From the IMG/VR virus record IMGVR_UViG_3300010334_000053: a stretch of DNA of 64,000 nt; one strand, written 5' to 3'. The notes under the pieces are model-generated. The model searched no databases and was not told where the DNA came from. It saw nothing but the letters and a program-made list of their open reading frames with translations. The stretch is from an uncultured virus (IMG/VR IMGVR_UViG_3300010334_000053). Its lineage: Duplodnaviria > Heunggongvirae > Uroviricota > Caudoviricetes. The stretch's first letter is position 1, and every line of letters starts with the position of its first letter. The position numbers were made by a program, and so were the translations under genes. Positions 4,630 to 64,000 of the stretch are shown one piece after another.

Positions 4630-4911
4630 TCACTCATATATATTTGACCATTTTTTCAATTTTTCAATTTTCTTTAAACAAGCATCGTTTACTTCTTCTG
4701 CTGATACAGTATTGGATGCAATTAATAAATTGATCATGCACTGGAGGTCACCCAGCTCTTCCGCAAGGTGTTCCCTATTATCCTTACTACTTGATGGATG
4801 ATAGCTTTCAAACCCAAATCTTCGAATTTTGCAAACTGCTTGTACGACTTCAACACATTCTTCTTGAAGAATGTTTAAAATCTCATCAATTTTCGTGTCT
4901 ACGCCGATCAT
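4630..4911 (-). CDS. MazG-like NTP pyrophosphohydrolase
   Basis: EECVEV...EELGDL. Confidence 0.7.
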   Translation of the reverse strand: MIGVDTKIDEILNILQEECVEVVQAVCKIRRFGFESYHPSSSKDNREHLAEELGDLQCMINLLIASNTVSAEEVNDACLKKIEKLKKWSNIYE

Positions 4912-4921
4912 TATAAATGCC

Positions 4922-5284
4922 TTATACTATTGAGTTGTTTTCTACCAGGGCAATTGTTGTTTTTAACTGGCTCTTTGCACGGTTGAAATTTTCAACGGCA
5001 ATACTGACCGCATTATTGTTTTTTGCCAACTCTGTTATTTTTTGTTCTTCTGCCATTTGTTTAGCTACATAATTAAGAAGAGCATCAGTATGTGCAGAAA
5101 GCTGAATATCATAATGTTTTTCAGGAATGGCAGTCCACGATCCATTTTCGAGTGCTTCCATTTTATTGATCGCACTATTATATCTTACATTCGGAAGAAA
5201 AGACACTGGTGAAAAATTATAACTGGAAGATTGTTTGTCATTAACGTGTATATGTGGACTATTTGAATATAAGTTAGTGTACAT
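4922..5284 (-). CDS. hypothetical protein
   Basis: ORF in operon. Confidence 0.6.
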   Translation of the reverse strand: MYTNLYSNSPHIHVNDKQSSSYNFSPVSFLPNVRYNSAINKMEALENGSWTAIPEKHYDIQLSAHTDALLNYVAKQMAEEQKITELAKNNNAVSIAVENFNRAKSQLKTTIALVENNSIV

Positions 5285-54628: not shown

Positions 54629-55519
54629 TTACATAGTCTCCAACGATTCACGAACCCAAGCAAGTCGGGCTTGCTCGTCCATTTCAGTGTACTCAACGAT
54701 ATTAGCGCGGATCTTGTCGATCAGCGGATAATACTCTTCGTCAATTTGCTGCTTGATCTGATCACTCATCAGCTTGTCAGTACGCGGATTGCGAGCAACC
54801 CACTTGCTGGTCAAGTAATACGGCGACTTGATCTTAGCAGCAATACCGTCTTCAGTGTAGAACACAAACCCTTCGTGCTTGACGTTCTTCACAGCCTTGA
54901 GAAGTTCACCTACCGTAGTACGCACACCCAGAACAGGCAGGCAACCAAACTGAATACCAAACACAGCAAGAGCATGTGAATCCAACCTCACCGGGCTATC
55001 CCATTCCTTCAAACGGTAGCCGATCAAGTACATGCCTTCTTCTTCAGGAACAATATGCGGATCATTGCGATGCACACATTCAAACATGAAAGTTAGGCGA
55101 GGATTTGCACGGCAAATTTCACGATACACATCCACGTCAATAAGCTCACGAGCCATTGCACAGAAGTCGCTGTCCAGGCTACCGGTAGTGCTCACAAGGA
55201 TATCTCCATTGTGCCAGGTAACCGAAACCATGAAGCCGTTGATCTTGCGATAAGCGTCAACAACAGTGTCGTCGCTTAACTTAGGAGCCTTCTTTTCGAC
55301 ACCGTAGTTGTAGACCTTGGTAAAGGGACGAGAAACAATGTTGAAGTCCTGGTCGATCACAGTGCCGCGGCATTCCTCAAGGAAGCGATTCCACAGATCG
55401 TCGTAAAATACGCGCTTGGTGTACTTGAGCACAAACAAACCTGGATATGCTTCACTTTCACGCATTTTAACCAGCTTGGGATTCTTTTCAACCCAATTCT
55501 TAAGTTCGATCTTGTTCAT
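54629..55519 (-). CDS. RNA ligase (Rnl1-like)
   Basis: ECRG, RPFTK, motif I RKING, MFE, EGFV, KIKS. Confidence 0.8.
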   Translation of the reverse strand: MNKIELKNWVEKNPKLVKMRESEAYPGLFVLKYTKRVFYDDLWNRFLEECRGTVIDQDFNIVSRPFTKVYNYGVEKKAPKLSDDTVVDAYRKINGFMVSVTWHNGDILVSTTGSLDSDFCAMARELIDVDVYREICRANPRLTFMFECVHRNDPHIVPEEEGMYLIGYRLKEWDSPVRLDSHALAVFGIQFGCLPVLGVRTTVGELLKAVKNVKHEGFVFYTEDGIAAKIKSPYYLTSKWVARNPRTDKLMSDQIKQQIDEEYYPLIDKIRANIVEYTEMDEQARLAWVRESLETM

Positions 55520-55692: not shown

Positions 55693-56613
55693 ATGAATAT
55701 TTATACACCAATTACAATCACAGAGGAAATTAGAAAACGATTTAAACCAACTAGACTTGCCATTAAGGAACTTAATGGAGTAAAATATTTTTGCAAATCA
55801 GTTAGAAAAGATATTGAAAAATACACCGGAAGTGGAGTCAGATGGACTAACCATGTTAAAAAGCATGGAAGGGAACATATCAGAACGTTGTGGATAAGTG
55901 AGTGGTTTTACTGTCCTGAACGTTTGCAGTTTTTTGCTCTTGAATTCAGTAAACAACACAATATAGTCGAGAGCAGTGAATGGGCAAATCTTATACCAGA
56001 AAATGGATTAACTGGTAACACCGGTTCTAAAAAAGGCCACATGGCAGGGATTCCAAAACCAAAAAGCAATATGCATCGCGATTCAATTAGCAAAACTCTC
56101 ACGGGAATTACGTTAGAATACCGACACGGCAAAGAAAAAGCTGATGAGATTAGATCAAAAATGTCTTTAGCCAAGATTGGAAACAAAAAATCGAAAGAAA
56201 CTATCGAAAAAACAAGACAGACTCATTTAGGAAGTAAACGTGGCAAAGAAACTAAACAAAGAATGAAAGAAGCGCAGACAAGACGAGTACCACTAGTATG
56301 TGAACACTGTGGTAAATCTGTCTTGCCCGGCAACTTTCATAGATGGCACGGTGATTGTTGTTTATCCAATCCCAAACATTTGAAAAGAAAAGTTAATACT
56401 ACTAACTCGTGTAAAAATCGATCAAAAAAAGTAGTAATAAACGAAAAAGTGTACGCCTCGTTAAAAGAAGCATACACTTTGTTAAACTTGCCCAGAAATT
56501 TACTAGGAAATATGCTAAAGAAAAATATTACCAGTAATTCTAAATGGGGAATTGTTTCTTTTGAAATTATCAATGATGAGACATTGGATCAACAAGTTTC
56601 ATCTTCTGAATAA
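55693..56613 (+). CDS. GIY-YIG-related homing endonuclease with NUMOD-like repeats
   Basis: KYFCK..KYTGSG, basic S.ET..K repeats, CEHCG..RWHGD; inverted relative to neighbours. Confidence 0.7.
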   Translation: MNIYTPITITEEIRKRFKPTRLAIKELNGVKYFCKSVRKDIEKYTGSGVRWTNHVKKHGREHIRTLWISEWFYCPERLQFFALEFSKQHNIVESSEWANLIPENGLTGNTGSKKGHMAGIPKPKSNMHRDSISKTLTGITLEYRHGKEKADEIRSKMSLAKIGNKKSKETIEKTRQTHLGSKRGKETKQRMKEAQTRRVPLVCEHCGKSVLPGNFHRWHGDCCLSNPKHLKRKVNTTNSCKNRSKKVVINEKVYASLKEAYTLLNLPRNLLGNMLKKNITSNSKWGIVSFEIINDETLDQQVSSSE

Positions 56614-57106
56614 CTTCATCTAACTCAACTACAATTTTTCCAGTTGCATCATATCCTACATCCATAATCCTTCCTGGAATACCAGTGGGCTGACCATGAC
56701 GGTGACCATGTAACATAATGCTACCATGCCCTGCTCGATTATGATCAAATACTGGATAGTGGAACATCACTACAAAAGTCTTGTTATAAGTCATTTCATA
56801 ATAAACATGAACTTCTTTAAAGCAACGACGGAACACAGGATCCTTGAGCAACTTCCGATCGTGATTGCCTTCAATCAGGATCTTATCACCATTCAGCTGA
56901 TTCAAGATTGCCACGGCTTTGTTCGAAGGCAGAAAGGCAAAATCACCTAGAATATAGACAGTGTCATCTGGATTAACCTTAGCATTCCACTCGGAAATCA
57001 TACTCTGATTCATATCTTCAACGTCCGCGAACTTGCGAGTCTCAGGACAGAACTTCATAATATTCGCGTGTCCAAAATGGAGATCACTTGATACCCAGGT
57101 CTTCAT
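56570..57106 (-). CDS. calcineurin-like metallophosphoesterase
   Basis: SDLHFGH, LGD, GNHD, HYP, HGHRH. Confidence 0.9.
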   Translation of the reverse strand: MKTWVSSDLHFGHANIMKFCPETRKFADVEDMNQSMISEWNAKVNPDDTVYILGDFAFLPSNKAVAILNQLNGDKILIEGNHDRKLLKDPVFRRCFKEVHVYYEMTYNKTFVVMFHYPVFDHNRAGHGSIMLHGHRHGQPTGIPGRIMDVGYDATGKIVVELDEVIQKMKLVDPMSHH

Positions 57107-57586: not shown

Positions 57587-57654
57587 AATAATGGTGCGAA
57601 TCGCGACAGTGGGGATTGTCCATTCGCTCTAACAGTTTAGAAGGAACTATCAGT
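57585..57654 (+). promoter_or_regulatory. structured leader of homing endonuclease gene (copy B)
   Basis: Same architecture as 55625-55692. Confidence 0.6.
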
Positions 57655-58281
57655 ATGAATATTTATTACGTCTATGCTTATCTCCGTAAGAAAGATCTCA
57701 CACCATATTATATCGGTAAAGGTAAAGATAATCGTGCTTATCGCAAACATAATGTACCTGTACCAAGGGATAGGTCTATGATTGTTTTTCTAGAAACAGG
57801 ATTAACCAATATTGGTGCCTGCGCATTAGAACGACGCTATATCAGGTGGTATGGACGAAAAGATTTAGGTACAGGAATATTGCGAAATAGAACTGATGGC
57901 GGCGACGGTATACCGGGAATCTTGCACACAGTTGAACGAAATCAAAAAATTAGTAAAAAACTAAAAGGTAAATTTGTATCAGAAACTACTAGAAAAAGAC
58001 TTAGTGATTCTCATATAGGAAAACAAACAGGATCTAATAATGGAATGTTTGGTAAAACTCATTCTGAAAAAGTAAAGAATGATCATAGATTGCGTATGAT
58101 AGGTAATAAAAATAGTCTAGGAAATAAGCATACCGAAGAAGCTAGATTAAAGCAATCACTACGTGCTAAGAATAGGGAAATTAAAATATGTCCCCACTGT
58201 GGATTTGGATGTACTGGATCAAATTATACAAGATGGCATGGGGATAATTGTAAAAAATTAGGTCAAAAAAATATTGGGTAG
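57655..58281 (+). CDS. GIY-YIG homing endonuclease with NUMOD3 repeats
   Basis: YYVYAY..PYYIGKG..RA, NRTDGG, GKTHSE, KHTEE, CPHCG..RWHGDNC; start after AAGGA. Confidence 0.8.
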
Positions 58282-58303
58282 ACGCTAATCTACCCAATAT
58301 TTT
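58268..58303. terminator. bidirectional terminator
   Basis: 15-bp inverted repeat between convergent genes. Confidence 0.7.
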
Positions 58304-58313
58304 AAGTTATGTA

Positions 58314-59738
58314 TTAGATGTCGTATCGTGGATCCATGATAGTTGACATCATAATTCCCACCGGCGTAAATTTATCCATTTCTGCTGACAGTATGGACTT
58401 CATAATAGCCGGAGAAAATCCGCTCACAAGTGCCGCACCGCTCTTGTCTGCCTTCACAGGAACATTATCTGAACTGTTAAGATTCCAAAATACTATTGCA
58501 GGAACCTGATATCCCGCTTCTGCGTACTTGCGTTCAATCATTTCCATAGCAGAATCATCATTTCTGATGCACTGATTGAACTGCATATCACTGAGCACCA
58601 AAAGGATCTCAGGCATTTCACTCTGAGGTACACCGTTCTTGACTGCAACATCAAGAATCTTGTTGAATGCAGCGTGTAGGTTAGTACTCATGCCCCATTC
58701 GCTCTTGACCATCTGTGCAGCCTTTTCAACAACATTGCCCTTGAGAGTAACTAGCTGAGGACTGGAACTGAAAGTAAGGAAAGTGTCCTTGAACTTGCCA
58801 GTGTTCTTGTCCGCAAGATAGAGACCCAGTGAAACTGCAACGTCAAGGCAAGTAACCTCACTCTTAGAAGAGCTACCACCTGCACGACAAGTCATAGAAC
58901 CCGAAACGTCAACCAGTGGAAGGATGTTTGCATCCCCAACGTAGTTAGGAAGCGCATTCCACTGTGCCACAACATGGTCAAGTTCAGTCTTACCAAGTGC
59001 TACGCGACTGTAAGGATTGATTACACCCTTGAGAACGTCATACGGATACACTGCGCCAGCGTTGACCTTTACAGTAGGATCACCCTTTACCAGCTTGGCA
59101 ACATACTCGGCAAACTTTGGAGTATTGCGAGTAAAAGCCTTCTTGTAGCGCGAAGCTGCAAGACTAGGAACATGGTTAAAGTTGATGTTATCCCAATCCT
59201 TAGAACACATCTGAGTTTCAACAACCCGGGTCAGGTTAACCAGCGTCTTACGATACTGCTTAGGGCTCATACCAAGTGCAGATCGAAGTTCTGCTGCCAC
59301 TGCGCCCTTGCGAGGCATCCACTTGGCGCAAAGACCATTGCCACTGGCAAGTGCATCTGCGATCAGTGCGTATGCTTCGGTCTTGAGATCGATGGTTTCA
59401 AAGACGAGTAGATCGTCCCATCGACCAATTTCTGGTACCTTTGCAAGAAGTGCCTTTGCTGCATCGGTGTCAGTCTTTTCCAGCTGAACAAGGATGTCAC
59501 GGAAAATCTTACGTTCGCCTGCACCGCCACGAGCGTCACGCGCCCACTGTGCAACGCGCAGTGCAATTTCTCGATTTTCCACGAATGCGCCAGTGAAGGC
59601 AGGCACGATGTCCTTGCCACGCGATCCGCCAACGGCAAAGAAAAGGTCGACGTTCTTGGACGCTGACGACTTAAGAGCCTTCATACCATTTGCAGTCCTT
59701 GCAGATTGATTTGCAACCGCTTCAATAAAAGTAGACAT
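58314..59738 (-). CDS. Ro60/TROVE-like vWA protein (DUF2828-type)
   Basis: TANG, RDARGGAGER, GRWDDL, AKWMPR, MIDAS DVSGSM, SDMQF, FWNL, SGFSP. Confidence 0.8.
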   Translation of the reverse strand: MSTFIEAVANQSARTANGMKALKSSASKNVDLFFAVGGSRGKDIVPAFTGAFVENREIALRVAQWARDARGGAGERKIFRDILVQLEKTDTDAAKALLAKVPEIGRWDDLLVFETIDLKTEAYALIADALASGNGLCAKWMPRKGAVAAELRSALGMSPKQYRKTLVNLTRVVETQMCSKDWDNINFNHVPSLAASRYKKAFTRNTPKFAEYVAKLVKGDPTVKVNAGAVYPYDVLKGVINPYSRVALGKTELDHVVAQWNALPNYVGDANILPLVDVSGSMTCRAGGSSSKSEVTCLDVAVSLGLYLADKNTGKFKDTFLTFSSSPQLVTLKGNVVEKAAQMVKSEWGMSTNLHAAFNKILDVAVKNGVPQSEMPEILLVLSDMQFNQCIRNDDSAMEMIERKYAEAGYQVPAIVFWNLNSSDNVPVKADKSGAALVSGFSPAIMKSILSAEMDKFTPVGIMMSTIMDPRYDI

Positions 59739-59751
59739 AGTTATTTCCCTT

Positions 59752-59785
59752 CAGTTTAGGTTAAAAAATTGCTGTTACTAAACTT
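59752..59785 (-). ncRNA. CAGCAA stem element in 5' UTR of TROVE-like gene
   Basis: AGTTTAG-TAA-CAGCAA-TTTTTTAAC-CTAAACT abutting the SD. Confidence 0.55.
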
Positions 59786-59798
59786 TATTTGTTCTCAC

Positions 59799-59827
59799 AT
59801 TATATACAAAAATTATTTTTGTGTCAA
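59799..59827 (-). promoter_or_regulatory. sigma70-like promoter of TROVE-like gene
   Basis: Perfect TTGACA-17-TATAAT. Confidence 0.75.
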
Positions 59828-60556
59828 TCGTTTTTTTGCTATTTTAGAAGTTATTCCGACATAGTCCCAATTTTCTTTAGGTCCTGTTTGTGACCAAAAT
59901 ACGGTTTTTGGCACTCTTATACAATTTCCTTGCCTATCAACAACGGATACTGTTTCTTTTATTTCCAGCCAATTGTGGGTACCTTTTGCTACCCTATCTG
60001 ATGCTACAGAGGTGCCATCTGCACGTTTTAATAAATTATGAGTGCCATTTTTAACACGCTTATTATTAAGATCAGTTGAGTGCTGTGAACCTTTTTCGCC
60101 TTGAAAATTATGTCTTCCTTCTTTAACTAACTTGGCAGTTCGTTCTTTTGCAAATTTTGAACCTGTTTCTCCCTGCCACGGGTGTGTTCCGTTTTCGACC
60201 ATTTTTCTTGCTTTAATTGAAGAAGCAATTTTCATATTTTTAGTATTGTGTTTCTTGTGGCCTTTGTCACTTCCTCCATCAATACCGTTTTCTATTTTAA
60301 AATTTGCCCATTCCTTTGATTCAACAATATTATTATTTTTTGAAAACGTTGATGCAGCTTTTATGCATTCATTTTTGTCTTCAAAGAATCCAATAATTTC
60401 GGTTTCAAATAATTTACCATGTTTTCGTAAATGTGCCAGCCAATATTCACCAGATCCAGTATATTTGTATGGATCAGAACTAATAGTTTTTCCAAAATAC
60501 TTTAAGCCAGTTATTGTGTGGGTTTTAACATAAAGATATGTAGGTTTAAAAGACAT
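59813..60556 (-). CDS. GIY-YIG-related homing endonuclease with GTH(N/P) repeats
   Basis: YLYVK.H..TGLKYFGKT..YTGSG; four GTH/GRH repeats. Confidence 0.75.
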   Translation of the reverse strand: MSFKPTYLYVKTHTITGLKYFGKTISSDPYKYTGSGEYWLAHLRKHGKLFETEIIGFFEDKNECIKAASTFSKNNNIVESKEWANFKIENGIDGGSDKGHKKHNTKNMKIASSIKARKMVENGTHPWQGETGSKFAKERTAKLVKEGRHNFQGEKGSQHSTDLNNKRVKNGTHNLLKRADGTSVASDRVAKGTHNWLEIKETVSVVDRQGNCIRVPKTVFWSQTGPKENWDYVGITSKIAKKRLTQK

Positions 60557-60606
60557 AAAAACTCCTTTTTAAGTATTTATGTCTAGTACGCGCTTCTTGA
60601 TTAAAA

Positions 60607-60713
60607 CAGGATGTTGTGACATTAAAAGACCGGGAGTCGAACCCATTGTCACTGTCCCCACTGGACTGGCCCGCTAGTTTTGGCAGCGAATAATGATTGC
60701 GGTAATCATCCTA
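60607..60713 (-). ncRNA. Y-RNA-like/tRNA-mimic element 1
   Basis: TAGGATG/CATCCTG closing stem, CCGCAA, D-like GTCC-AGTGG-GGAC, T arm GGG-TTCGACT-CCC. Confidence 0.6.
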
Positions 60714-60732
60714 AAATATGATTTGAATTAAA

Positions 60733-60797
60733 CAGGATGCCTTTTTTGCTTTTTTGATTACAAGTCAAGTGCATAAAGGTTTGCTGAAAGCATCCTA
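60733..60797 (-). ncRNA. Y-RNA-like/anticodon-mimic element 2
   Basis: TAGGATGC/GCATCCTG stem, CAGCAA, TTGA-CTTGTAA-TCAA loop. Confidence 0.6.
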
Positions 60798-60807
60798 AAA
60801 CTTAATT

Positions 60808-60993
60808 TTAGATTGTTTGTTCGTGTTGTTCTATTAATCTATCTATCCAAAAAATCCACCAAGCCTGTTGCAATGCTTTATATAACTCTATTGCAGCAGG
60901 ATCTTTTTGAATATGTACTAAATCAGATTCGGTCGGGTGTGTTTCTCTATACCAAGAAGCAAACGTAGTCGAATCATGTTGTCTTTTTTTCAT
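60808..60993 (-). CDS. hypothetical protein
   Basis: ATGA overlap with pth2. Confidence 0.5.
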   Translation of the reverse strand: MKKRQHDSTTFASWYRETHPTESDLVHIQKDPAAIELYKALQQAWWIFWIDRLIEQHEQTI

Positions 60994-61388
60994 GTAAACG
61001 TCTTTAACGCTTTGATATCGTCACCAATATTTTCTTCTGCAATTGGACCAAGTCCTAAACAGGTCGTGGTCGGCTCGTCGAACACAGTAAATGCAGCATC
61101 AGTTACAAGACTAGTACCACAGATATCCTTGTACTTGTCTTGCAGCACACGTAGTTCTTCTACAGTGTCTACAATCAGCGTGATCTTATAAGCCCGATCG
61201 CCATTCTGGTACTTTTCTGCATCACTAGGTCCGTCACTGGCAAATCCATGTTCACCAGGAAATCTTTTTACAGAATCCCAAAAACTGTGAAGGTAGGCGT
61301 GTCCTGCCTGAGTACACATCTTACCACGAATGCCGTTCATTTTCTTTACCGATTCAAGGGCAAAGATACAGTACATTTTAACTTTCAT
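60990..61388 (-). CDS. peptidyl-tRNA hydrolase, Pth2 family
   Basis: GKMCTQAGHA, KITL, VTDAAFTVF, TTTCLGLGP; start reassigned to MKVK. Confidence 0.85.
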   Translation of the reverse strand: MKVKMYCIFALESVKKMNGIRGKMCTQAGHAYLHSFWDSVKRFPGEHGFASDGPSDAEKYQNGDRAYKITLIVDTVEELRVLQDKYKDICGTSLVTDAAFTVFDEPTTTCLGLGPIAEENIGDDIKALKTFT

Positions 61389-61406
61389 ATCTCTACCTTT
61401 CAAAAT

Positions 61407-61484
61407 TGGAGCGCCGGGCGTGATTCGAACACGCGGTGTTACTGCTTTGCAGGCAGTTGCATTGGGCCTCTCTGCCACCGACGC
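61407..61484 (-). tRNA. tRNA-Cys(GCA)
   Basis: ACTGC-CTGCAAA-GCAGT; TTCGAAT; U73-CCA. Confidence 0.9.
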
Positions 61485-61497
61485 ATTATTTAAATTC

Positions 61498-61585
61498 TGG
61501 CGGAGCGTGTGGGAATCGAACCCACTCTACCCATTTAGGTAGTACAGATTAGCAGTCTGCTGCATTACCGGCCTGCCCACGCTCC
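61498..61585 (-). tRNA. tRNA-Ser(GCT)
   Basis: GCAGA-CTGCTAA-TCTGT, long variable arm, G73-CCA. Confidence 0.92.
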
Positions 61586-61600
61586 GTATTTGTTGTTGCA

Positions 61601-61629
61601 ATTATAGTACTATTTATTAGCAGTGTCAA
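61601..61629 (-). promoter_or_regulatory. sigma70-like promoter for tRNA-pth2-ncRNA unit
   Basis: TTGACA-17-TATAAT. Confidence 0.7.
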
Positions 61630-61637
61630 CGCTAAAT

Positions 61638-62054
61638 TTACAATCCTGCCTTTTTTACTAACTCTTTATATCCAGCCCAGCTAGGATGAATATGATCAGG
61701 TTGTACACGCTTAGTTGCAATAATCTGATCGCCATGTTCGTGTGCTAGTTTCTCAACAATTGCATTTACATTTTCTTTACAAAACTTTTCATTGCACGGC
61801 GGCATAATCCATACAACACGACTTGAGTGGACACGATTTCGCATCTTACGAAGTTCTGCTTCAGTATGAATGAACTGATGATCATTAGTGCCAAGACTAA
61901 TGACAACTAGCTTAGAATCAAGAGCAGTATTGCCCCATTTCTTGTTCCACTGCCACGTGTTATATCCACCTTTAGCATATGAAACACATTGCTTAGGTGC
62001 AAACATTTCAGTACCAACGGCGATACTATCGCCGATAATTAAACATTCCAACAT
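61638..62054 (-). CDS. SGNH/GDSL hydrolase
   Basis: IGDSI, LGTND, DHIHP. Confidence 0.8.
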   Translation of the reverse strand: MLECLIIGDSIAVGTEMFAPKQCVSYAKGGYNTWQWNKKWGNTALDSKLVVISLGTNDHQFIHTEAELRKMRNRVHSSRVVWIMPPCNEKFCKENVNAIVEKLAHEHGDQIIATKRVQPDHIHPSWAGYKELVKKAGL

Positions 62055-62374
62055 TAATCACCCTTTACTGTTTTTGCCTTACCATCTTGTACTAGCTTGT
62101 GACGCGCTTTATTCACCCTGGGAGTAGGAGCATCGCCACCGGCAAATTCATGCTTGGTAAGCAATAGGTCTTTATGTTGAATAAATTCTTCCATTATTTT
62201 AAAATCGCAATCAGCAGCAATATAAATGCCATTATGGGATGTGAAGGGAAAATCACAAATGCAATAATTAACAACAAACAGTCCACTATTACCTCCGCAT
62301 CTTTGCAATTTCTTCCGCGTCACTTTGTTCAAAAATCGGCACCATATTTGATTTATGCATCGTGCCAATTCCAA
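62054..62374 (-). CDS. hypothetical protein (true start probably downstream)
   Basis: Stop coupled to SGNH start; 5' part overlaps neighbour. Confidence 0.35.
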   Translation of the reverse strand: MELARCINQIWCRFLNKVTRKKLQRCGGNSGLFVVNYCICDFPFTSHNGIYIAADCDFKIMEEFIQHKDLLLTKHEFAGGDAPTPRVNKARHKLVQDGKAKTVKGD

Positions 62375-62696
62375 TTAGTTTGCGCGCACCTGAATATTGC
62401 ATTGGCGCCTTGGCAAATCCATTACCCACGCCGTTGCCGCTGGAGATCACAGGACTTGGTCGACGGTATGTTTCTGTTTTGAATGGATCTTTGACGATCT
62501 TAGATGTATACTTACTCTTGCCCTGTTTGTAGGCAATGTACTCATCAACCGTCTTTTCCTTGAGACCAAGTCTGCGCATCTGCTTGTTGTAAGTGCGAAA
62601 CTCTTCTGCAAGTTTTGCAGTTATTGTAACAGGCTTAGACTTCTTACGTTTAGTAGAAGTAGTTGATAATCCTGGTCCACAAAGATGCATACTCAT
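62289..62696 (-). CDS. hypothetical basic phage protein
   Basis: GIGTMHKSNMVPIF...IAKMRR. Confidence 0.7.
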   Translation of the reverse strand: MSMHLCGPGLSTTSTKRKKSKPVTITAKLAEEFRTYNKQMRRLGLKEKTVDEYIAYKQGKSKYTSKIVKDPFKTETYRRPSPVISSGNGVGNGFAKAPMQYSGARKLIGIGTMHKSNMVPIFEQSDAEEIAKMRR

Positions 62697-62716
62697 AAAA
62701 ATTCCTATTTAAAAAT

Positions 62717-62794
62717 TGGTGATGCCAGTAGGACTCGAACCTACGACCTAAAGATTAGAAGTCTTTTGCTCTATTCCAGCTGAGCTATGGCACC
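62717..62794 (-). tRNA. tRNA-Arg(TCT)
   Basis: AAAGA-CTTCTAA-TCTTT; CCA encoded. Confidence 0.93.
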
Positions 62795-62803
62795 ATAATT
62801 TTG

Positions 62804-62992
62804 TTAAGCCTGACCGTTTTTCCAGTCATCTTCGGTGATTTCAAAGTCGGCATTTTTAACAGACTTAATGGCTCTAAACACGGTTACTACACCTAAACAC
62901 ACAGCACCGGTTACACCAAATACTGCAAGAAATGCAATTTTTGGACCTAGAATTCTTGCCTGCTCATATACTGCATGTTTGATCTGTTTCAT
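62804..62992 (-). CDS. small membrane protein
   Basis: One TM helix; SD AAGG. Confidence 0.6.
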   Translation of the reverse strand: MKQIKHAVYEQARILGPKIAFLAVFGVTGAVCLGVVTVFRAIKSVKNADFEITEDDWKNGQA

Positions 62993-63116
62993 TGTGGTAG
63001 CCTTATTTACTCATCAAGTAAAACACACCAAATACTGCAAGAATTGCAATCTTTGGACCTAAAATTCTTGCTTGTTCATATACTGCATGTTTGATCTGTT
63101 TCATTGTGGTAGCCTT
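62913..63116. repeat. 92-bp direct repeat (62913-63004, 63025-63116)
   Basis: 5 mismatches, period 112. Confidence 0.9.
63003..63104 (-). CDS. 33-aa paralog of downstream membrane protein
   Basis: MKQIKHAVYEQARILGPKIAILAVFGVFYLMSK*. Confidence 0.5.
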   Translation of the reverse strand: MKQIKHAVYEQARILGPKIAILAVFGVFYLMSK

Positions 63117-63214
63117 TGTAATTGCTATTTACTTGACAAGTATAAAACACCATGATGTTATTGTCAATATTAAAAATTAATAAATAATATGGTTACTTTG
63201 GAGAAATATGTACC

Positions 63215-63691
63215 ATGAATATTAAAGAACTTCTTAACATTTCCGAAGGAGAAATTGTTGATTTTGATGCTGCAAAGCAAGATAAAGAGTTGAAGGGATT
63301 TCACAAAGATTTCATGGGAAAAGTTCAACAACGTGCCAGTGGCATGAATGCAGTAATGTCAGCGATGAAAGAAAAAGGAATCTTTGATGATCTTCCTGTT
63401 GGAACTAGAATTCGTCTATCAAAAGGCGGAAGTTACAAAGTTATCCGACATGGCGTAACACGTTCAAAAACTGGCATGGAAAACTCATTTTCAGCAAATT
63501 TTCGAAAAGATCATGGATTCGGACCAGCTTATTTTTTGCCTACGGAAGACGGATTCTATACACCACTAGTGTATCTTAGGAAAGAAGAATCAAACGGCGA
63601 TTATGAAGAAAGTGGTTTCCATCTTGATAAACTTATGAATTTTGAAACTGGTGAAAAACGTTACACTAAGTTTACCGGTCCGCAACGTTAA
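63215..63691 (+). CDS. hypothetical protein with capsid-targeting-like N-terminus
   Basis: MNIKELLNISE; ATAAATA at 63180; SD GGAG. Confidence 0.7.
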   Translation: MNIKELLNISEGEIVDFDAAKQDKELKGFHKDFMGKVQQRASGMNAVMSAMKEKGIFDDLPVGTRIRLSKGGSYKVIRHGVTRSKTGMENSFSANFRKDHGFGPAYFLPTEDGFYTPLVYLRKEESNGDYEESGFHLDKLMNFETGEKRYTKFTGPQR

Positions 63692-63692
63692 T

Positions 63693-63769
63693 TGGTGCTC
63701 CTAACAGGATTCGAACCTGTGGCCTCAAGATTAGGAATCGTGCGCTCTATCCTGCTGAGCTATAGGAGC
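63693..63769 (-). tRNA. tRNA-Arg(CCT)
   Basis: TT-CCT-AA loop, one stem mismatch, CCA. Confidence 0.88.
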
Positions 63770-63771
63770 AT

Positions 63772-63845
63772 TGGTGCCTCATGACAGGATCGAACTGCCG
63801 TACTCTGATTACGAAACAGATGTAATACCACTATACGAATGAGGC
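63772..63845 (-). tRNA. tRNA-Thr(CGT)
   Basis: TT-CGT-AA loop; GCCTCAT acceptor; CCA. Confidence 0.88.
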
Positions 63846-63846
63846 G

Positions 63847-63932
63847 TGGTACGGGCGACAGGACTCGAACCTGCACTAGCGTAACTAACTGAGGCTTAAA
63901 CTCAGCGGGTCTACCAATTCCCCCACGCCCGC
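63847..63932 (-). tRNA. tRNA-Leu(TAA)
   Basis: CTGAG-TTTAAGC-CTCAG; long variable arm; CCA. Confidence 0.92.
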
Positions 63933-63949
63933 ACATACTACTATTTAAC

Positions 63950-64000
63950 TGGAGGAAGATGATGGCATCGAACCATTGACCTTTCAGTCACTACTGCTTT
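63950..64000 (-). tRNA. tRNA 3' half, probably Ser (truncated by window)
   Basis: Long variable arm, T arm, CCA; anticodon ends in A. Confidence 0.65.

What the first reader, a model, noticed from the sequence alone, without database searches (positions are those of the whole stretch)
60733..60797. Isolated Thr(UGU)-like anticodon stem-loop on a non-tRNA scaffold
Seen: UUGA-CUUGUAA-UCAA is a canonical 7-nt anticodon loop (C32 U33 UGU A37 A38). It caps an irregular rod (CCUUU/AAAGG, UGC/GCA) with no acceptor stem, T arm or CCA. It lies downstream of the tRNA-Ser/tRNA-Cys/pth2 promoter. Inference: a decoy or sensor for host anticodon nucleases or tRNA-modifying enzymes.
Basis: partly seen in the sequence, partly recalled or inferred. 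Interest (0 to 1): 0.7.

Follow-up and report, generated by a model that had tools for sequence, protein, structure and literature searches.

The report
Phage Y-RNA-like anticodon-arm mimic
This is a small phage RNA gene that displays a copy of a tRNA anticodon arm on a conserved stem, one of a large undescribed family that sits in phage tRNA clusters beside a Ro60-like RNA-binding protein and may help phages deal with host enzymes that attack or modify tRNAs.

Summary
The stem-loop is real and lies on the minus strand (60796-60734). On its own it is not beyond chance. The comparative evidence is what makes it real.

The element has three parts:
- a 7-bp terminal helix that starts AG and ends CU;
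- a single-stranded C-N-GCAA motif (CAGCAA here);
- a payload that varies between elements.

In 170 distinct short elements, 78 carry a 7-nt Y-U-NNN-R-N loop on a 4-bp stem, against 2.6 in shuffled payloads. C32, U33, A37 and A38 are nearly invariant, while the triplet varies (UUU, UGU, UGA, GUU and others).

Other elements on the same scaffold carry T-arm/closed-acceptor/D-arm modules laid out as I recall YrlA's, or near-complete tRNAs.

Elements lie in phage tRNA arrays, always co-oriented with the tRNAs. They co-occur with a DUF2828/DUF7788 protein whose predicted fold is Ro60. In 67 of 75 loci one element ends 10-28 nt before that gene's start codon. The window holds three elements (A, B, C).

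Best reading: a new Y-RNA-like family bound by the Ro-like protein, with element A presenting an anticodon-arm mimic. Binding, processing and any decoy role are inferred, not shown. Rfam holds no matching family, and my five literature searches found no description.

The parts
60734..60796 (-). Element A: scaffold RNA with an anticodon-arm payload. U60797 and G60733 are the conserved flanks.
   Evidence: model R1, 77.6 bits, E 8e-17. Homologues.
60790..60796 (-). P1 5' strand, AGGAUGC
   Evidence: Pairs with 60734-60740. Covariation.
60734..60740 (-). P1 3' strand, GCAUCCU
60781..60786 (-). Conserved single-stranded motif CAGCAA (family consensus C-N-GCAA)
   Evidence: C12, G14, C15 and A16 are invariant in A2. 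The four element-B copies have CCGCAA, CGGCAA or CUGCAA. The motif is kept in cultured phages whose P1 differs.
60771..60773 (-). P2 5' strand, UGC. Pairs with GCA at 60747-60749.
   Evidence: 3 of 3 pairs show changes on both sides, for example G-C to A-U in 12 rows.
60754..60768 (-). Anticodon-arm mimic: stem UUGA/UCAA and 7-nt loop CUUGUAA (60764-60758). UGU at 60762-60760.
60608..60712 (-). Element B: same scaffold (AGGAUG...CAUCCU, motif CCGCAA) with a payload of about 80 nt. The payload holds a D-arm-like hairpin (GUCC-AGUGG-GGAC) and a hairpin with the loop UUCGACU, which I read as T-loop-like from recall.
   Evidence: 18 bits, E 0.068, scaffold ends aligned. (4 copies, one compensatory G-C to A-U change). 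The tRNA-like reading is not established.
59753..59784 (-). Element C: minimal scaffold (AGUUUAG...CUAAACU plus CAGCAA) with almost no payload. It ends 14 nt before the start codon of the Ro-like gene and directly precedes GAAGGGA, which I read as the ribosome-binding site.
   Evidence: 14.6 bits, E 0.48, weak alone; the same position is held in 67 of 75 loci.
59799..59827 (-). Sigma-70 consensus promoter (12 of 12) in front of element C and the Ro-like gene
   Evidence: This is a consensus match only.
58314..59738 (-). 474-aa DUF2828/DUF7788 protein with a predicted Ro60 (TROVE + vWA) fold. The proposed partner of the scaffold.
   Evidence: Pfam; pLDDT 84.8, pTM 0.82; all 13 matches with E <= 0.001 are Ro60/TROVE. 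D277, S279 and S281 are invariant in A1; I read D-x-S-x-S as the vWA MIDAS motif from recall.
59813..60556 (-). 247-aa ORF between elements B and C. Homing-endonuclease-like by eye, with no Pfam hit. Absent from a relative.
   Evidence: run X5 contig joins 59679 to 60606 with 188 other letters between.
61601..61629 (-). Sigma-70 consensus promoter (12 of 12) in front of tRNA-Ser, tRNA-Cys, PTH2, a 61-aa ORF and elements A and B
   Evidence: tRNAs. PTH2.

Best explanation
Element A is a small non-coding RNA gene of a previously undescribed phage family that is built like a Y RNA.

Each member has a constant scaffold:
- a 7-bp helix formed by its 5' and 3' ends, starting A-U and G-C;
- a U before the helix and a G after it;
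- a single-stranded C-N-GCAA motif after the 5' strand;
- an A-rich 3' side.

Each member also has an exchangeable payload. In element A the payload is an anticodon arm: a 4-5 bp stem and a 7-nt loop, C32 U33 UGU A37 A38.

Proposed mechanism:
1. The elements are transcribed with the phage tRNA genes.
2. They are cut out as RNAs of about 60 nt.
3. The adjacent Ro60-fold protein (DUF2828/DUF7788) binds them through the scaffold.
4. The particle presents the tRNA part to a host or phage factor that reads anticodon loops. That factor could be an anticodon nuclease, a modifying enzyme or a repair enzyme. The particle would act as a tether or as a decoy.
5. A payload-less copy (element C) next to the ribosome-binding site of the Ro-like gene lets the protein repress its own translation.

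Shown here: the anatomy, conservation and covariation; anticodon-loop geometry with a varying triplet; position in tRNA arrays; co-occurrence with the Ro-like gene; the Ro60 fold.

Inferred: transcription and processing, protein binding, autoregulation, and the target of the mimic.
For: Family and scaffold
- A motif-plus-closing-helix scan finds 164 elements in 66 of 81 sources that encode the protein, in arrays of 2-6.
- The window has three: A, B and C.

Structure
- On the MAFFT alignment A2 (31 rows): 92.7% of cells pair against 79.0% shuffled; 11 of 15 pairs show changes on both sides; covariation is 0.337 against 0.108 (0 of 500 shuffles reach it); slid controls give 0.02-0.11.
- On 107 distinct model hits: 87.8% against 67.9%; 16 of 17 pairs show double changes; covariation 0.401 against 0.114.

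Anticodon mimicry
- 76 of 107 rows have a 7-nt loop. C32 is kept in 73 of 76, U33 in 73, A37 in 75 and A38 in 69. Triplets: UUU 23, UGU 14, UGA 11, GUU 8, UCU 4, GUA 3, GGA 3.
- Without the model: 78 of 170 distinct short elements against 2.6 +/- 1.5 (maximum 8) in 200 shuffles.
- The same UUGA/UCAA arm occurs in genuine tRNA-Lys(CUU) and tRNA-Asn genes of related contigs.
- Other elements on the same scaffold hold partial or whole tRNA matches.

An RNA, made with the tRNAs
- 122 closed elements sit among a mean of 10.0 same-strand tRNAs and 0 on the opposite strand. 43 unclosed motif hits have 0.2.
- G-U pairs are tolerated in the helices.

Link to the Ro-like protein
- The predicted fold is Ro60.
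- 67 of 75 loci have an element ending 10-28 nt before its start codon.
- The gene is found in 46 of 77 records holding a closed element, and in 4 of the 5 that are at least 90% complete. It is found in 8 of 40 records with an unclosed motif, and in 0 of the 8 complete ones.
- Model R1 hits 5 of 6 cultured phage genomes that have the gene and 0 of 2 without it.
- In Felixounavirus AYO145A the helix is AGACC.../...GGUCU, yet CAGCAA is kept.

Precedent
- Bacterial and phage Ro60 genes have Y RNAs with tRNA-like modules next to them on the same strand (PMC4201824, passages and Table S2).
- phiLo Ro60 binds two upstream Y-like RNAs (PMC12135203, passages).
Against: - No experiment or read-level data shows the RNA, its ends or its binding. 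The only RNA-library evidence is one low-depth assembled contig covering 60655-60964, and that could be carried-over DNA.
- The scaffold lacks the GNCGAA/CGAA motif of known Y RNAs. It is not matched by Rfam YrlA or Y_RNA, while YrlA does score a known phage YrlA at 32.5 bits.
- The protein matches DUF2828/DUF7788 in Pfam, not TROVE. It shares 11-16% identity with Ro60 structures at TM 0.5-0.6. An RNA-binding mode like Ro60's is therefore an extrapolation.
- RNAalifold on A2 recovers only the terminal helix.
- The A2 rows were picked because they had a hairpin, and A3 is fitted to the model. The percentages paired are inflated in both.
- Elements often lie several kb from the gene: only 19 of 96 motif-found loci had it within the fetched flank. 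31 of 77 records with elements show no gene, though most of those are small fragments.
- Counts of distinct sequences are not independent evolutionary events.
Confidence: 0.6

Rival explanations
1. A free-standing anticodon-arm decoy or sensor. The RNA acts alone. The conserved scaffold serves only for excision from the tRNA precursor and for stability. The Ro-like gene is a neighbour in the same RNA-repair region, not a partner.
For: - The loop keeps anticodon geometry while the triplet varies.
- The commonest triplets (UUU, UGU, UGA, GUU) differ from the commonest anticodons of genuine tRNAs in the same loci: CAU 41, GCU 29, UAC 27, UCC 27, and UUU only 9 of 565.
- From recall, tRNA-Lys(UUU) and the Q34 tRNAs are classic anticodon-nuclease targets.
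- A T4 Rnl1-like RNA ligase lies nearby at 54629-55519.
- Many elements lie kilobases from the Ro-like gene.
Against: - It does not explain why a payload-less or short element sits 10-28 nt before the Ro-like start codon in 67 of 75 loci.
- It does not explain why a 6-nt single-stranded motif is conserved across phage families whose helix sequence differs.
- It does not explain the genome-level co-occurrence.
Confidence: 0.17
2. Processing or regulatory punctuation. The elements are cis-acting structures that direct RNase cleavage of polycistronic tRNA transcripts, or that set the 5' end and translation of the Ro-like mRNA. The payload hairpins have no function in trans.
For: - They always lie in tRNA arrays on the tRNA strand, separated by short U-rich spacers.
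- The helix ends are conserved (U before AG, G after CU).
- One copy directly precedes the sequence I read as the ribosome-binding site.
Against: - Payloads are elaborate and selected: anticodon geometry, modules with a T arm, closed acceptor stem and D arm, and conserved domains of 100-200 nt.
- Element A+B is kept at 5 differences in 199 nt in a relative that lacks both flanking ORFs.
Confidence: 0.12
3. Decayed tRNA genes or DNA-level repeats (miniature inverted-repeat elements or homing-endonuclease debris) with no RNA function.
For: - They have terminal inverted repeats.
- Homing-endonuclease-like ORFs are interspersed.
- Some elements contain tRNA fragments.
Against: - Strand bias is strict relative to tRNAs: 0 opposite-strand tRNAs for 122 elements.
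- Compensatory changes and G-U pairs keep RNA helices.
- The single-stranded motif is conserved, and so is the position before the Ro-like gene.
Confidence: 0.04

Closest known systems
YrlA and other bacterial Y RNAs with Rsr/Ro60 (Chen et al. 2014, PMC4201824; Rfam RF02553)
   Same: - The 5' and 3' ends pair into a stem next to a short conserved single-stranded motif.
- The module beyond the stem mimics tRNA.
- They are encoded next to a Ro60-fold protein gene on the same strand, sometimes several in tandem.
- They also occur in phages (22 listed in Table S2).
   Different: - The motif is C-N-GCAA, not GNCGAA.
- There is no match to RF02553 or RF00019.
- The partner protein is Pfam DUF2828/DUF7788, not TROVE.
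- Payloads are exchangeable. They include bare anticodon arms, which YrlA does not display as far as I recall.
- Arrays are embedded in tRNA clusters.
- An extra copy sits in the mRNA leader of the protein gene.
Thermus phage phiLo Ro60 with Yrl1 and Yrl2 (PMC12135203; PDB 9L5Y and 9KOP)
   Same: - A phage Ro60-fold protein with two small RNAs encoded just upstream.
- It is the best Foldseek match of the window's protein (E 1e-7, TM 0.56).
- The RNAs have a 5'-3' stem flanking a bulge with a short motif (passages).
   Different: - The phiLo RNAs carry CGAA and no tRNA-part payload is reported.
- Sequence identity of the proteins is 16%.
- That system was shown to bind PNPase in vitro. Nothing is shown here.
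Bas63 gp130, a Ro60-like protein that counters the Ppl defence (preprint 10.1101/2024.10.10.617714, passages)
   Same: - Bas63 is a Felixounavirus.
- In Felixounavirus AYO145A the DUF2828 homologue (40% identity) lies directly upstream of the tRNA stretch, as described for gp130.
- The authors guessed that some annotated tRNAs might be Y RNAs.
   Different: - They identified no RNA.
- Here four scaffold elements are placed in AYO145A between the tRNAs: L223 5755-5821, 5922-5975, 6338-6408 and 6428-6553.
- I did not check by sequence that gp130 is the homologue.
Phage tRNAs that replace or evade cleaved host tRNAs, for example T5 tRNA-Lys against PARIS (PMC11464382, search listing and abstract only)
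   Same: Phage-encoded RNAs in tRNA clusters whose anticodon loops matter for conflict with host nucleases.
   Different: Those are complete, chargeable tRNAs. Element A has no D arm, T arm or CCA and cannot decode.
T4 stable RNAs rnaC and rnaD (species 1 and 2)
   Same: Small stable RNAs of unknown function inside a T4-type tRNA cluster, next to a GIY-YIG homing endonuclease gene.
   Different: - There is no scaffold in that T4 region by the relaxed pattern scan, whose only hits there lie under annotated protein genes, and none in the whole T4 genome by model R1.
- T4 has no homologue of the protein.

Membership tests
Y RNA / YrlA | The 5' and 3' ends pair into a terminal stem that carries the protein-binding site | tested here: met
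   7-bp P1, 98.5% paired, 5 of 7 pairs with double changes. RNAalifold predicts 6 of its pairs. Binding itself was not tested.
Y RNA / YrlA | Conserved GNCGAAN0-1G (bacteria) or GGUCCGA (animals) near the 5' end (PMC4201824) | tested here: not met
   The corresponding place holds C-N-GCAA: CAGCAA in A and C, CCGCAA in B.
Y RNA / YrlA | Match to the Rfam covariance models RF02553 or RF00019 | tested here: not met
   No match at E <= 10 in 58000-64000 or at E <= 1 in L222, L223 and L082. The control, Bxz1 YrlA, scores 32.5 bits at E 0.0016.
Y RNA / YrlA | Encoded within about 4 kb of a Ro60 orthologue, on the same strand | tested here: met
   Element A ends 995 nt upstream of the start of the Ro60-fold gene, on the same strand. 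The protein is not a Pfam TROVE member.
Y RNA / YrlA | tRNA-like domain with D and T arms | tested here: not met
   Element A carries only an anticodon arm. Sister elements such as L010:685-803 and L223:6428-6553 do have a T arm, closed acceptor stem and D arm. Element B is inconclusive.
Y RNA / YrlA | Bound by Ro60 in cells | not testable with these tools
   Needs immunoprecipitation or gel shift.
tRNA (RF00005) | Cloverleaf with acceptor stem, D arm, T arm and 3' CCA or discriminator | tested here: not met
   ARAGORN and cmscan find none at 60733-60797.
tRNA (RF00005) | 7-nt anticodon loop with U33 and purine 37 on a 5-bp stem | tested here: met
   Loop CUUGUAA on a stem of 4 bp plus a C-A mismatch. 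In homologues the stem has 5 bp; U33 is kept in 73 of 76 and A37 in 75 of 76.
Ro60 / TROVE proteins (the neighbouring gene) | Helical-repeat ring plus a C-terminal vWA domain with a MIDAS motif | tested here: met
   AlphaFold2 pLDDT 84.8. All 13 Foldseek matches with E <= 0.001 are Ro60/TROVE and cover the whole length. D277, S279 and S281 are invariant in A1; the D-x-S-x-S label is from recall.
Ro60 / TROVE proteins (the neighbouring gene) | Sequence membership of Pfam TROVE | tested here: not met
   Pfam gives DUF7788 (2.8e-49) and DUF2828 (2.5e-20) only. phmmer against PDB sequences finds nothing relevant.

The most novel reading that the evidence does not exclude
Phages of many families carry a library of interchangeable tRNA-part mimics, borne by a Ro-like protein. 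The parts include bare anticodon arms of Lys, Thr, Ser, Asn and Tyr type, elbow modules and whole tRNA bodies, all mounted on one protein-binding scaffold. The library works as an RNA-based counter-defence: the particles intercept or sense anticodon nucleases and other tRNA-targeting immune effectors. The varying triplet at positions 34-36 records which host nucleases each phage lineage meets.
Probability: 0.25. Interest if true: 0.9.

Novelty: new variant of a known kind. Interest (0 to 1): 0.78.

Why it matters
Ro60 and its Y RNAs are conserved from bacteria to humans, yet the purpose of the tRNA-like part of bacterial Y RNAs is still open.

Here the same logic (a protein-binding stem plus a tRNA mimic) appears in a second, unrecognised RNA family with a distant Ro60-fold partner. 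That partner is found in 710 phage records. They include Felixounavirus, T4-like phages, phages listed under Listeria, Staphylococcus and Campylobacter, and Cluster L1-type mycobacteriophages such as LeBron.

The payloads are modular, and many are reduced to a single anticodon arm. That points to what the particle is meant to touch.

It also gives a concrete RNA candidate for a reported result: a Ro60-like protein of phage Bas63 counters a bacterial defence system.

The family offers many natural variants for testing how anticodon nucleases, modification enzymes or repair enzymes recognise anticodon loops.

For annotation, it explains the odd tRNA-OTHER and pseudo-tRNA calls and the unannotated gaps in phage tRNA clusters.

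Tried and rejected
- **Similarity to cultured phages.** blastn of 60400-61000 against 50,697 phage records gave no match.
- **Nearest held virus record.** G001 has no copy of the intergenic region. The window's own assembly is not held.
- **Rfam.** The only match at element A is a Dictyostelium Class I RNA model at 23.2 bits, E 0.68, below its gathering score of 41.5. I take it as chance. At gathering thresholds the listed rows for 18 loci were all tRNA; 4 lower-scoring rows were not shown.
- **Folding.** The whole 254-nt intergenic stretch is no more stable than shuffles, z 0.17. Element B alone gives z -0.46. RNAalifold on A2 recovers only P1.
- **Relaxed pattern.** Any 7-bp closure plus C-[ACG]-GCA gives 329 candidates on the gene strand and 215 on the opposite strand. 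That is too many false positives, so I did not use it for counts.
- **T4 rnaC and rnaD as relatives.** There is no scaffold in that T4 region and no model hit in the T4 genome.
- **Expression.** One metatranscriptome run (X3, assembled contigs only) holds a contig identical to 60655-60964 at depth 3.8. It ends in adapter sequence inside element B. This shows neither transcription nor RNA ends.
- **Earlier findings of this scan.** Three look-ups returned nothing.
- **Element B as a YrlA-type tRNA elbow.** It is plausible by eye, but it has only 4 near-identical copies and no tRNA model match.
- **Protein-RNA complex prediction.** I did not try it, because the tool takes no RNA chain.
- **Literature.** Five searches found no description of these RNAs. 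bioRxiv supplements were not consulted.
Full report
**What is at the coordinates**

The genes of this part of the window run on the minus strand. Read on that strand, the order is:
1. A perfect sigma-70 consensus at 61629-61601.
2. tRNA-Ser(GCU) and tRNA-Cys(GCA).
3. A PTH2-family ORF and a 61-aa ORF.
4. A 250-nt non-coding stretch.
5. A 247-aa ORF that looks like a homing endonuclease but has no Pfam hit.
6. A second perfect promoter consensus at 59827-59799.
7. A 474-aa ORF at 59738-58314.

The finding is the first structured unit of the non-coding stretch. In order it reads U, AGGAUGC, UUU, CAGCAA, 7 nt, UGC, AC, UUGA, CUUGUAA, UCAA, AAAA, GCA, 6 A/G, GCAUCCU, G (60797-60733).

No tRNA finder or Rfam model calls the element a tRNA.

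**Is it more than chance?**

Taken alone, no.
- A 4-bp stem closing a CU-NNN-R-A loop occurs 19 times in the window, against 5.25 +/- 2.3 in shuffles.
- The minimum-energy fold of the element (-15 kcal/mol, z -2.4) does not even draw that hairpin.

The case rests on comparison with related sequences.

**A repeated scaffold**

About 20 nt downstream lies a second unit, element B (60712-60608). It begins AGGAUGAUUACCGCAA and ends CAUCCU.

A covariance model built later also picks up a third, minimal unit, element C (59784-59753). It reads AGUUUAG-UAA-CAGCAA...CUAAACU and ends 14 nt before the start codon of the 474-aa ORF.

**Relatives**

I used the 474-aa protein to fetch 80 loci from 320 viral contigs. 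A scan for the 5' motif plus a closing 7-bp complement found 164 elements in 66 of 81 sources. They lie in tandem arrays of 2-6 on the protein's strand.

All share three features:
- a terminal helix that starts A-U, G-C;
- a 2-4 nt spacer;
- C-N-GCA(A).

What lies between the helix strands differs. The payload types are:
- bare hairpins with 7-nt loops;
- modules with a T arm, a closed acceptor stem and a D arm, an order that I recall as YrlA's;
- a D arm, anticodon arm and T arm that score as partial or whole tRNA (L018 925-988, L021 3058-3113, L022 3733-3805);
- conserved domains of 100-220 nt of unknown kind.

**Structure support**

On a MAFFT alignment of 31 anticodon-arm-type elements (A2), my three-helix structure gives:
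- 92.7% of cells paired, against 79.0% in shuffles;
- 11 of 15 pairs with changes on both sides;
- a covariation score of 0.337 against 0.108 (0 of 500 shuffles reach it);
- 0.02-0.11 when partners are slid.

A model built from A2 (R1) found 110 matches at E <= 0.001 in 68 sources. On those, 87.8% of cells pair against 67.9%, 16 of 17 pairs show double changes, and the anticodon-like stem is 93% paired with all five pairs covarying.

Limits:
- A2's rows were chosen because a hairpin was seen, and A3 is fitted to the model.
- RNAalifold on A2 predicts only six pairs of the terminal helix.
- The three pairs that would extend P1 inward are paired in only about 55-65% of rows. I do not count them.
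Its 5' stretch is variable in A2.

- Of 107 distinct model hits, 76 have a 7-nt loop.
- In those 76, C32 is kept in 73, U33 in 73, A37 in 75 and A38 in 69.
- Positions 34-36 vary: UUU 23, UGU 14, UGA 11, GUU 8, UCU 4, GUA 3, GGA 3, others 10.

The model favours its own loop consensus, so I repeated the count without it. Of 170 distinct short elements defined only by the scaffold, 78 have a Y-U-NNN-R-N loop on a 4-bp stem, and 63 of these are CU-NNN-AA. Payload shuffles give 2.6 +/- 1.5, with a maximum of 8 in 200.

The arm UUGA/UCAA is one that genuine tRNA-Lys(CUU) and tRNA-Asn genes of related contigs use. The triplet spectrum of the mimics differs from that of the 565 genuine tRNAs in the same loci: CAU 41, GCU 29, UAC 27, UCC 27, UUU 9. 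These are counts of sequences, not of independent events.

**Where the elements live**

A collection scan for one exact form of the 5' motif returned 138 loci.
- Of 165 motif hits, 122 have the closing helix.
- The closed ones sit among a mean of 10.0 tRNA genes on the same strand and none on the opposite strand, and 111 of 122 have at least one.
- The 43 unclosed hits, which I take mostly as chance matches, have a mean of 0.2, and 3 of 43 have any.

The elements are therefore components of phage tRNA arrays and have a strand. Together with the tolerated G-U pairs, that argues for an RNA and against a DNA repeat.

**The neighbouring protein**

- Pfam gives DUF7788 and DUF2828.
- A sequence search of PDB finds nothing relevant.
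- An AlphaFold2 model from 44 homologues has pLDDT 84.8 and pTM 0.82.
- All 13 of its Foldseek matches with E <= 0.001 are Ro60/TROVE structures: Thermus phage phiLo, Xenopus, human and Deinococcus. They have TM 0.5-0.63 over the whole length, and isolated vWA domains follow.
- D277, S279 and S281 are invariant in the alignment. I read D-x-S-x-S as the vWA MIDAS motif from recall.

The family is in 710 of 50,697 phage records, all below 60% identity. Some depositors call it RNA-binding or Ro-like.

**Link between RNA and protein**

- In 67 of 75 loci with enough upstream sequence, a scaffold element ends 10-28 nt before the protein's start codon. In most it is directly followed by an AAAGGA-like or GGAG-like stretch that I read as the ribosome-binding site. 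The window's element C is one of these.
- The protein gene is present in 46 of 77 records that hold a closed element, although most of those records are fragments under 30% complete. It is present in 4 of the 5 that are at least 90% complete. The fifth, G046, has a 199-nt 'element' with no tRNA nearby and looks like a chance hit. Among records with only an unclosed motif the figures are 8 of 40, and 0 of 8 complete ones.
- R1 finds elements in 5 of 6 cultured phage genomes that have the gene, on the gene's strand and within about 10 kb. It finds none in 2 genomes without the gene: T4, and Bxz1, which has a canonical TROVE Ro.
- The sixth cultured genome, Felixounavirus AYO145A, has four elements found by pattern whose helix is AGACC.../...GGUCU while CAGCAA is kept. 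The helix covaries and the motif does not.
- In Cronobacter S13 and Citrobacter Ci1 the same helix-plus-motif appears closed by a tetraloop. It is inserted where the anticodon arm should be in odd 113-121-nt 'tRNA-OTHER' genes just downstream of the protein gene. That is a circular permutation of the same idea.

**Comparison with the known**

Chen et al. 2014 (PMC4201824; passages and Table S2 read) showed that bacterial Ro60 genes, and those of 22 phages, are flanked on the same strand by YrlA RNAs. These have a stem with a GNCGAAN0-1G motif plus a tRNA-like domain.

The phiLo paper (PMC12135203, passages) shows a phage Ro60 binding two upstream Y-like RNAs with a CGAA motif.

The present family has the same logic but fails the tests that define YrlA:
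- the motif is different;
- there is no hit to RF02553 or RF00019;
- RF02553 does score the Bxz1 control at 32.5 bits, but none of the elements in L222, L223 or L082 at E <= 1.

The partner is also a different Pfam family. I therefore file it as working like a Y RNA, not as a member of YrlA.

A preprint on phage Bas63, a Felixounavirus (passages), reports that its Ro60-like gp130 counters the Ppl defence and guesses that some neighbouring 'tRNAs' are Y RNAs. No RNA is identified there. I did not check by sequence that gp130 is the DUF2828 homologue.

Five full-text searches found no description of these RNAs.

**Mechanism, with odds**

- Most likely (0.6): the scaffold is the binding site of the Ro-like protein. 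Elements A and B are cut from the tRNA-Ser/Cys/PTH2 transcript and form particles that present a tRNA part. Element C lets the protein control its own translation.
- What the anticodon arm touches is open. A decoy or sensor for anticodon nucleases is attractive, because an Rnl1-like ligase lies nearby at 54629-55519 and the mimic triplets are skewed. I put it at about 0.25.
- Rivals: a protein-independent decoy (0.17), processing or leader structures only (0.12), and relics or DNA repeats (0.04).

**Other evidence of conservation and expression**

A relative's DNA contig (run X5) keeps elements A and B with 5 differences in 199 nt. It lacks both the 247-aa ORF (joint 59679 to 60606) and the 61-aa ORF (joint 60804 to 60994).

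One RNA-library contig (run X3) covers 60655-60964 identically at depth 3.8. Assembled contigs from an RNA library cannot show transcription or RNA ends.

**Verdict**

Noticed in passing
window 59813-60556 (-), 57616-58281 (+), 55693-56613 (+): Three ORFs look like homing endonucleases. They share the word GKKHTEE-type repeats. The 221-aa one has a NUMOD3 hit and a GIY-YIG-like N-terminus by eye. The 247-aa one splits the scaffold array between elements B and C and is absent from a relative (run X5).
   Followed up: partly
L082 4896-5016 and 5026-5138; L081 about 4890-5125; L222 5711-5824: In Cronobacter phage S13, Citrobacter phage Ci1 and Synechococcus phage BUCT-ZZ01 there are oversized tRNA genes, annotated tRNA-Ser or tRNA-OTHER/pseudo in S13 and Ci1. 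In S13 and Ci1 they have normal acceptor, D and T arms, but the anticodon arm is replaced by the scaffold helix closed with a tetraloop and followed by UAUUCAGCA. This is a permuted form of the same module. I did not inspect the 114-nt BUCT-ZZ01 gene for the insertion.
   Followed up: partly
window 54629-55519 (-) and 56570-57106 (-): A T4 Rnl1-type RNA ligase (Pfam RNA_lig_T4_1, E 7.8e-13) lies a few kb downstream of the Ro-like gene. So does a 178-aa ORF with metallophosphoesterase-like histidine motifs by eye and no Pfam hit. Together they look like an RNA-repair neighbourhood.
   Followed up: no
window 60808-60993 (-): The 61-aa ORF between PTH2 and element A has no family match. A related contig skips it exactly (run X5 joint 60804 to 60994, with 4 other letters between).
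   Followed up: no
L015:3732-3855, L021:2681-2899, L042:1532-1734, L057:1749-1941, L104:1983-2120 and similar: Several conserved payload classes of 100-220 nt on the same scaffold resemble neither tRNA nor any Rfam family. They may be further effector-binding modules.
   Followed up: no
L221 2909-3172 (T4 rnaC, rnaD): T4's two stable RNAs of unknown function lie in the equivalent place of its tRNA cluster, next to segB. They lack the scaffold, and T4 lacks the protein. rnaD does contain CACAGCAGAAA near its 3' end, which may be coincidence.
   Followed up: partly
L039:3929-3981, L030:3927-3979, L028:3924-3980, L021:3927-3980 and similar: The element that abuts the start of the Ro-like gene often has its own helix class (AGAUUCA/UGAAUCU, motif CCGCAA) and a CUUGAAA loop (triplet UGA). 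That suggests a specialised leader subtype.
   Followed up: no
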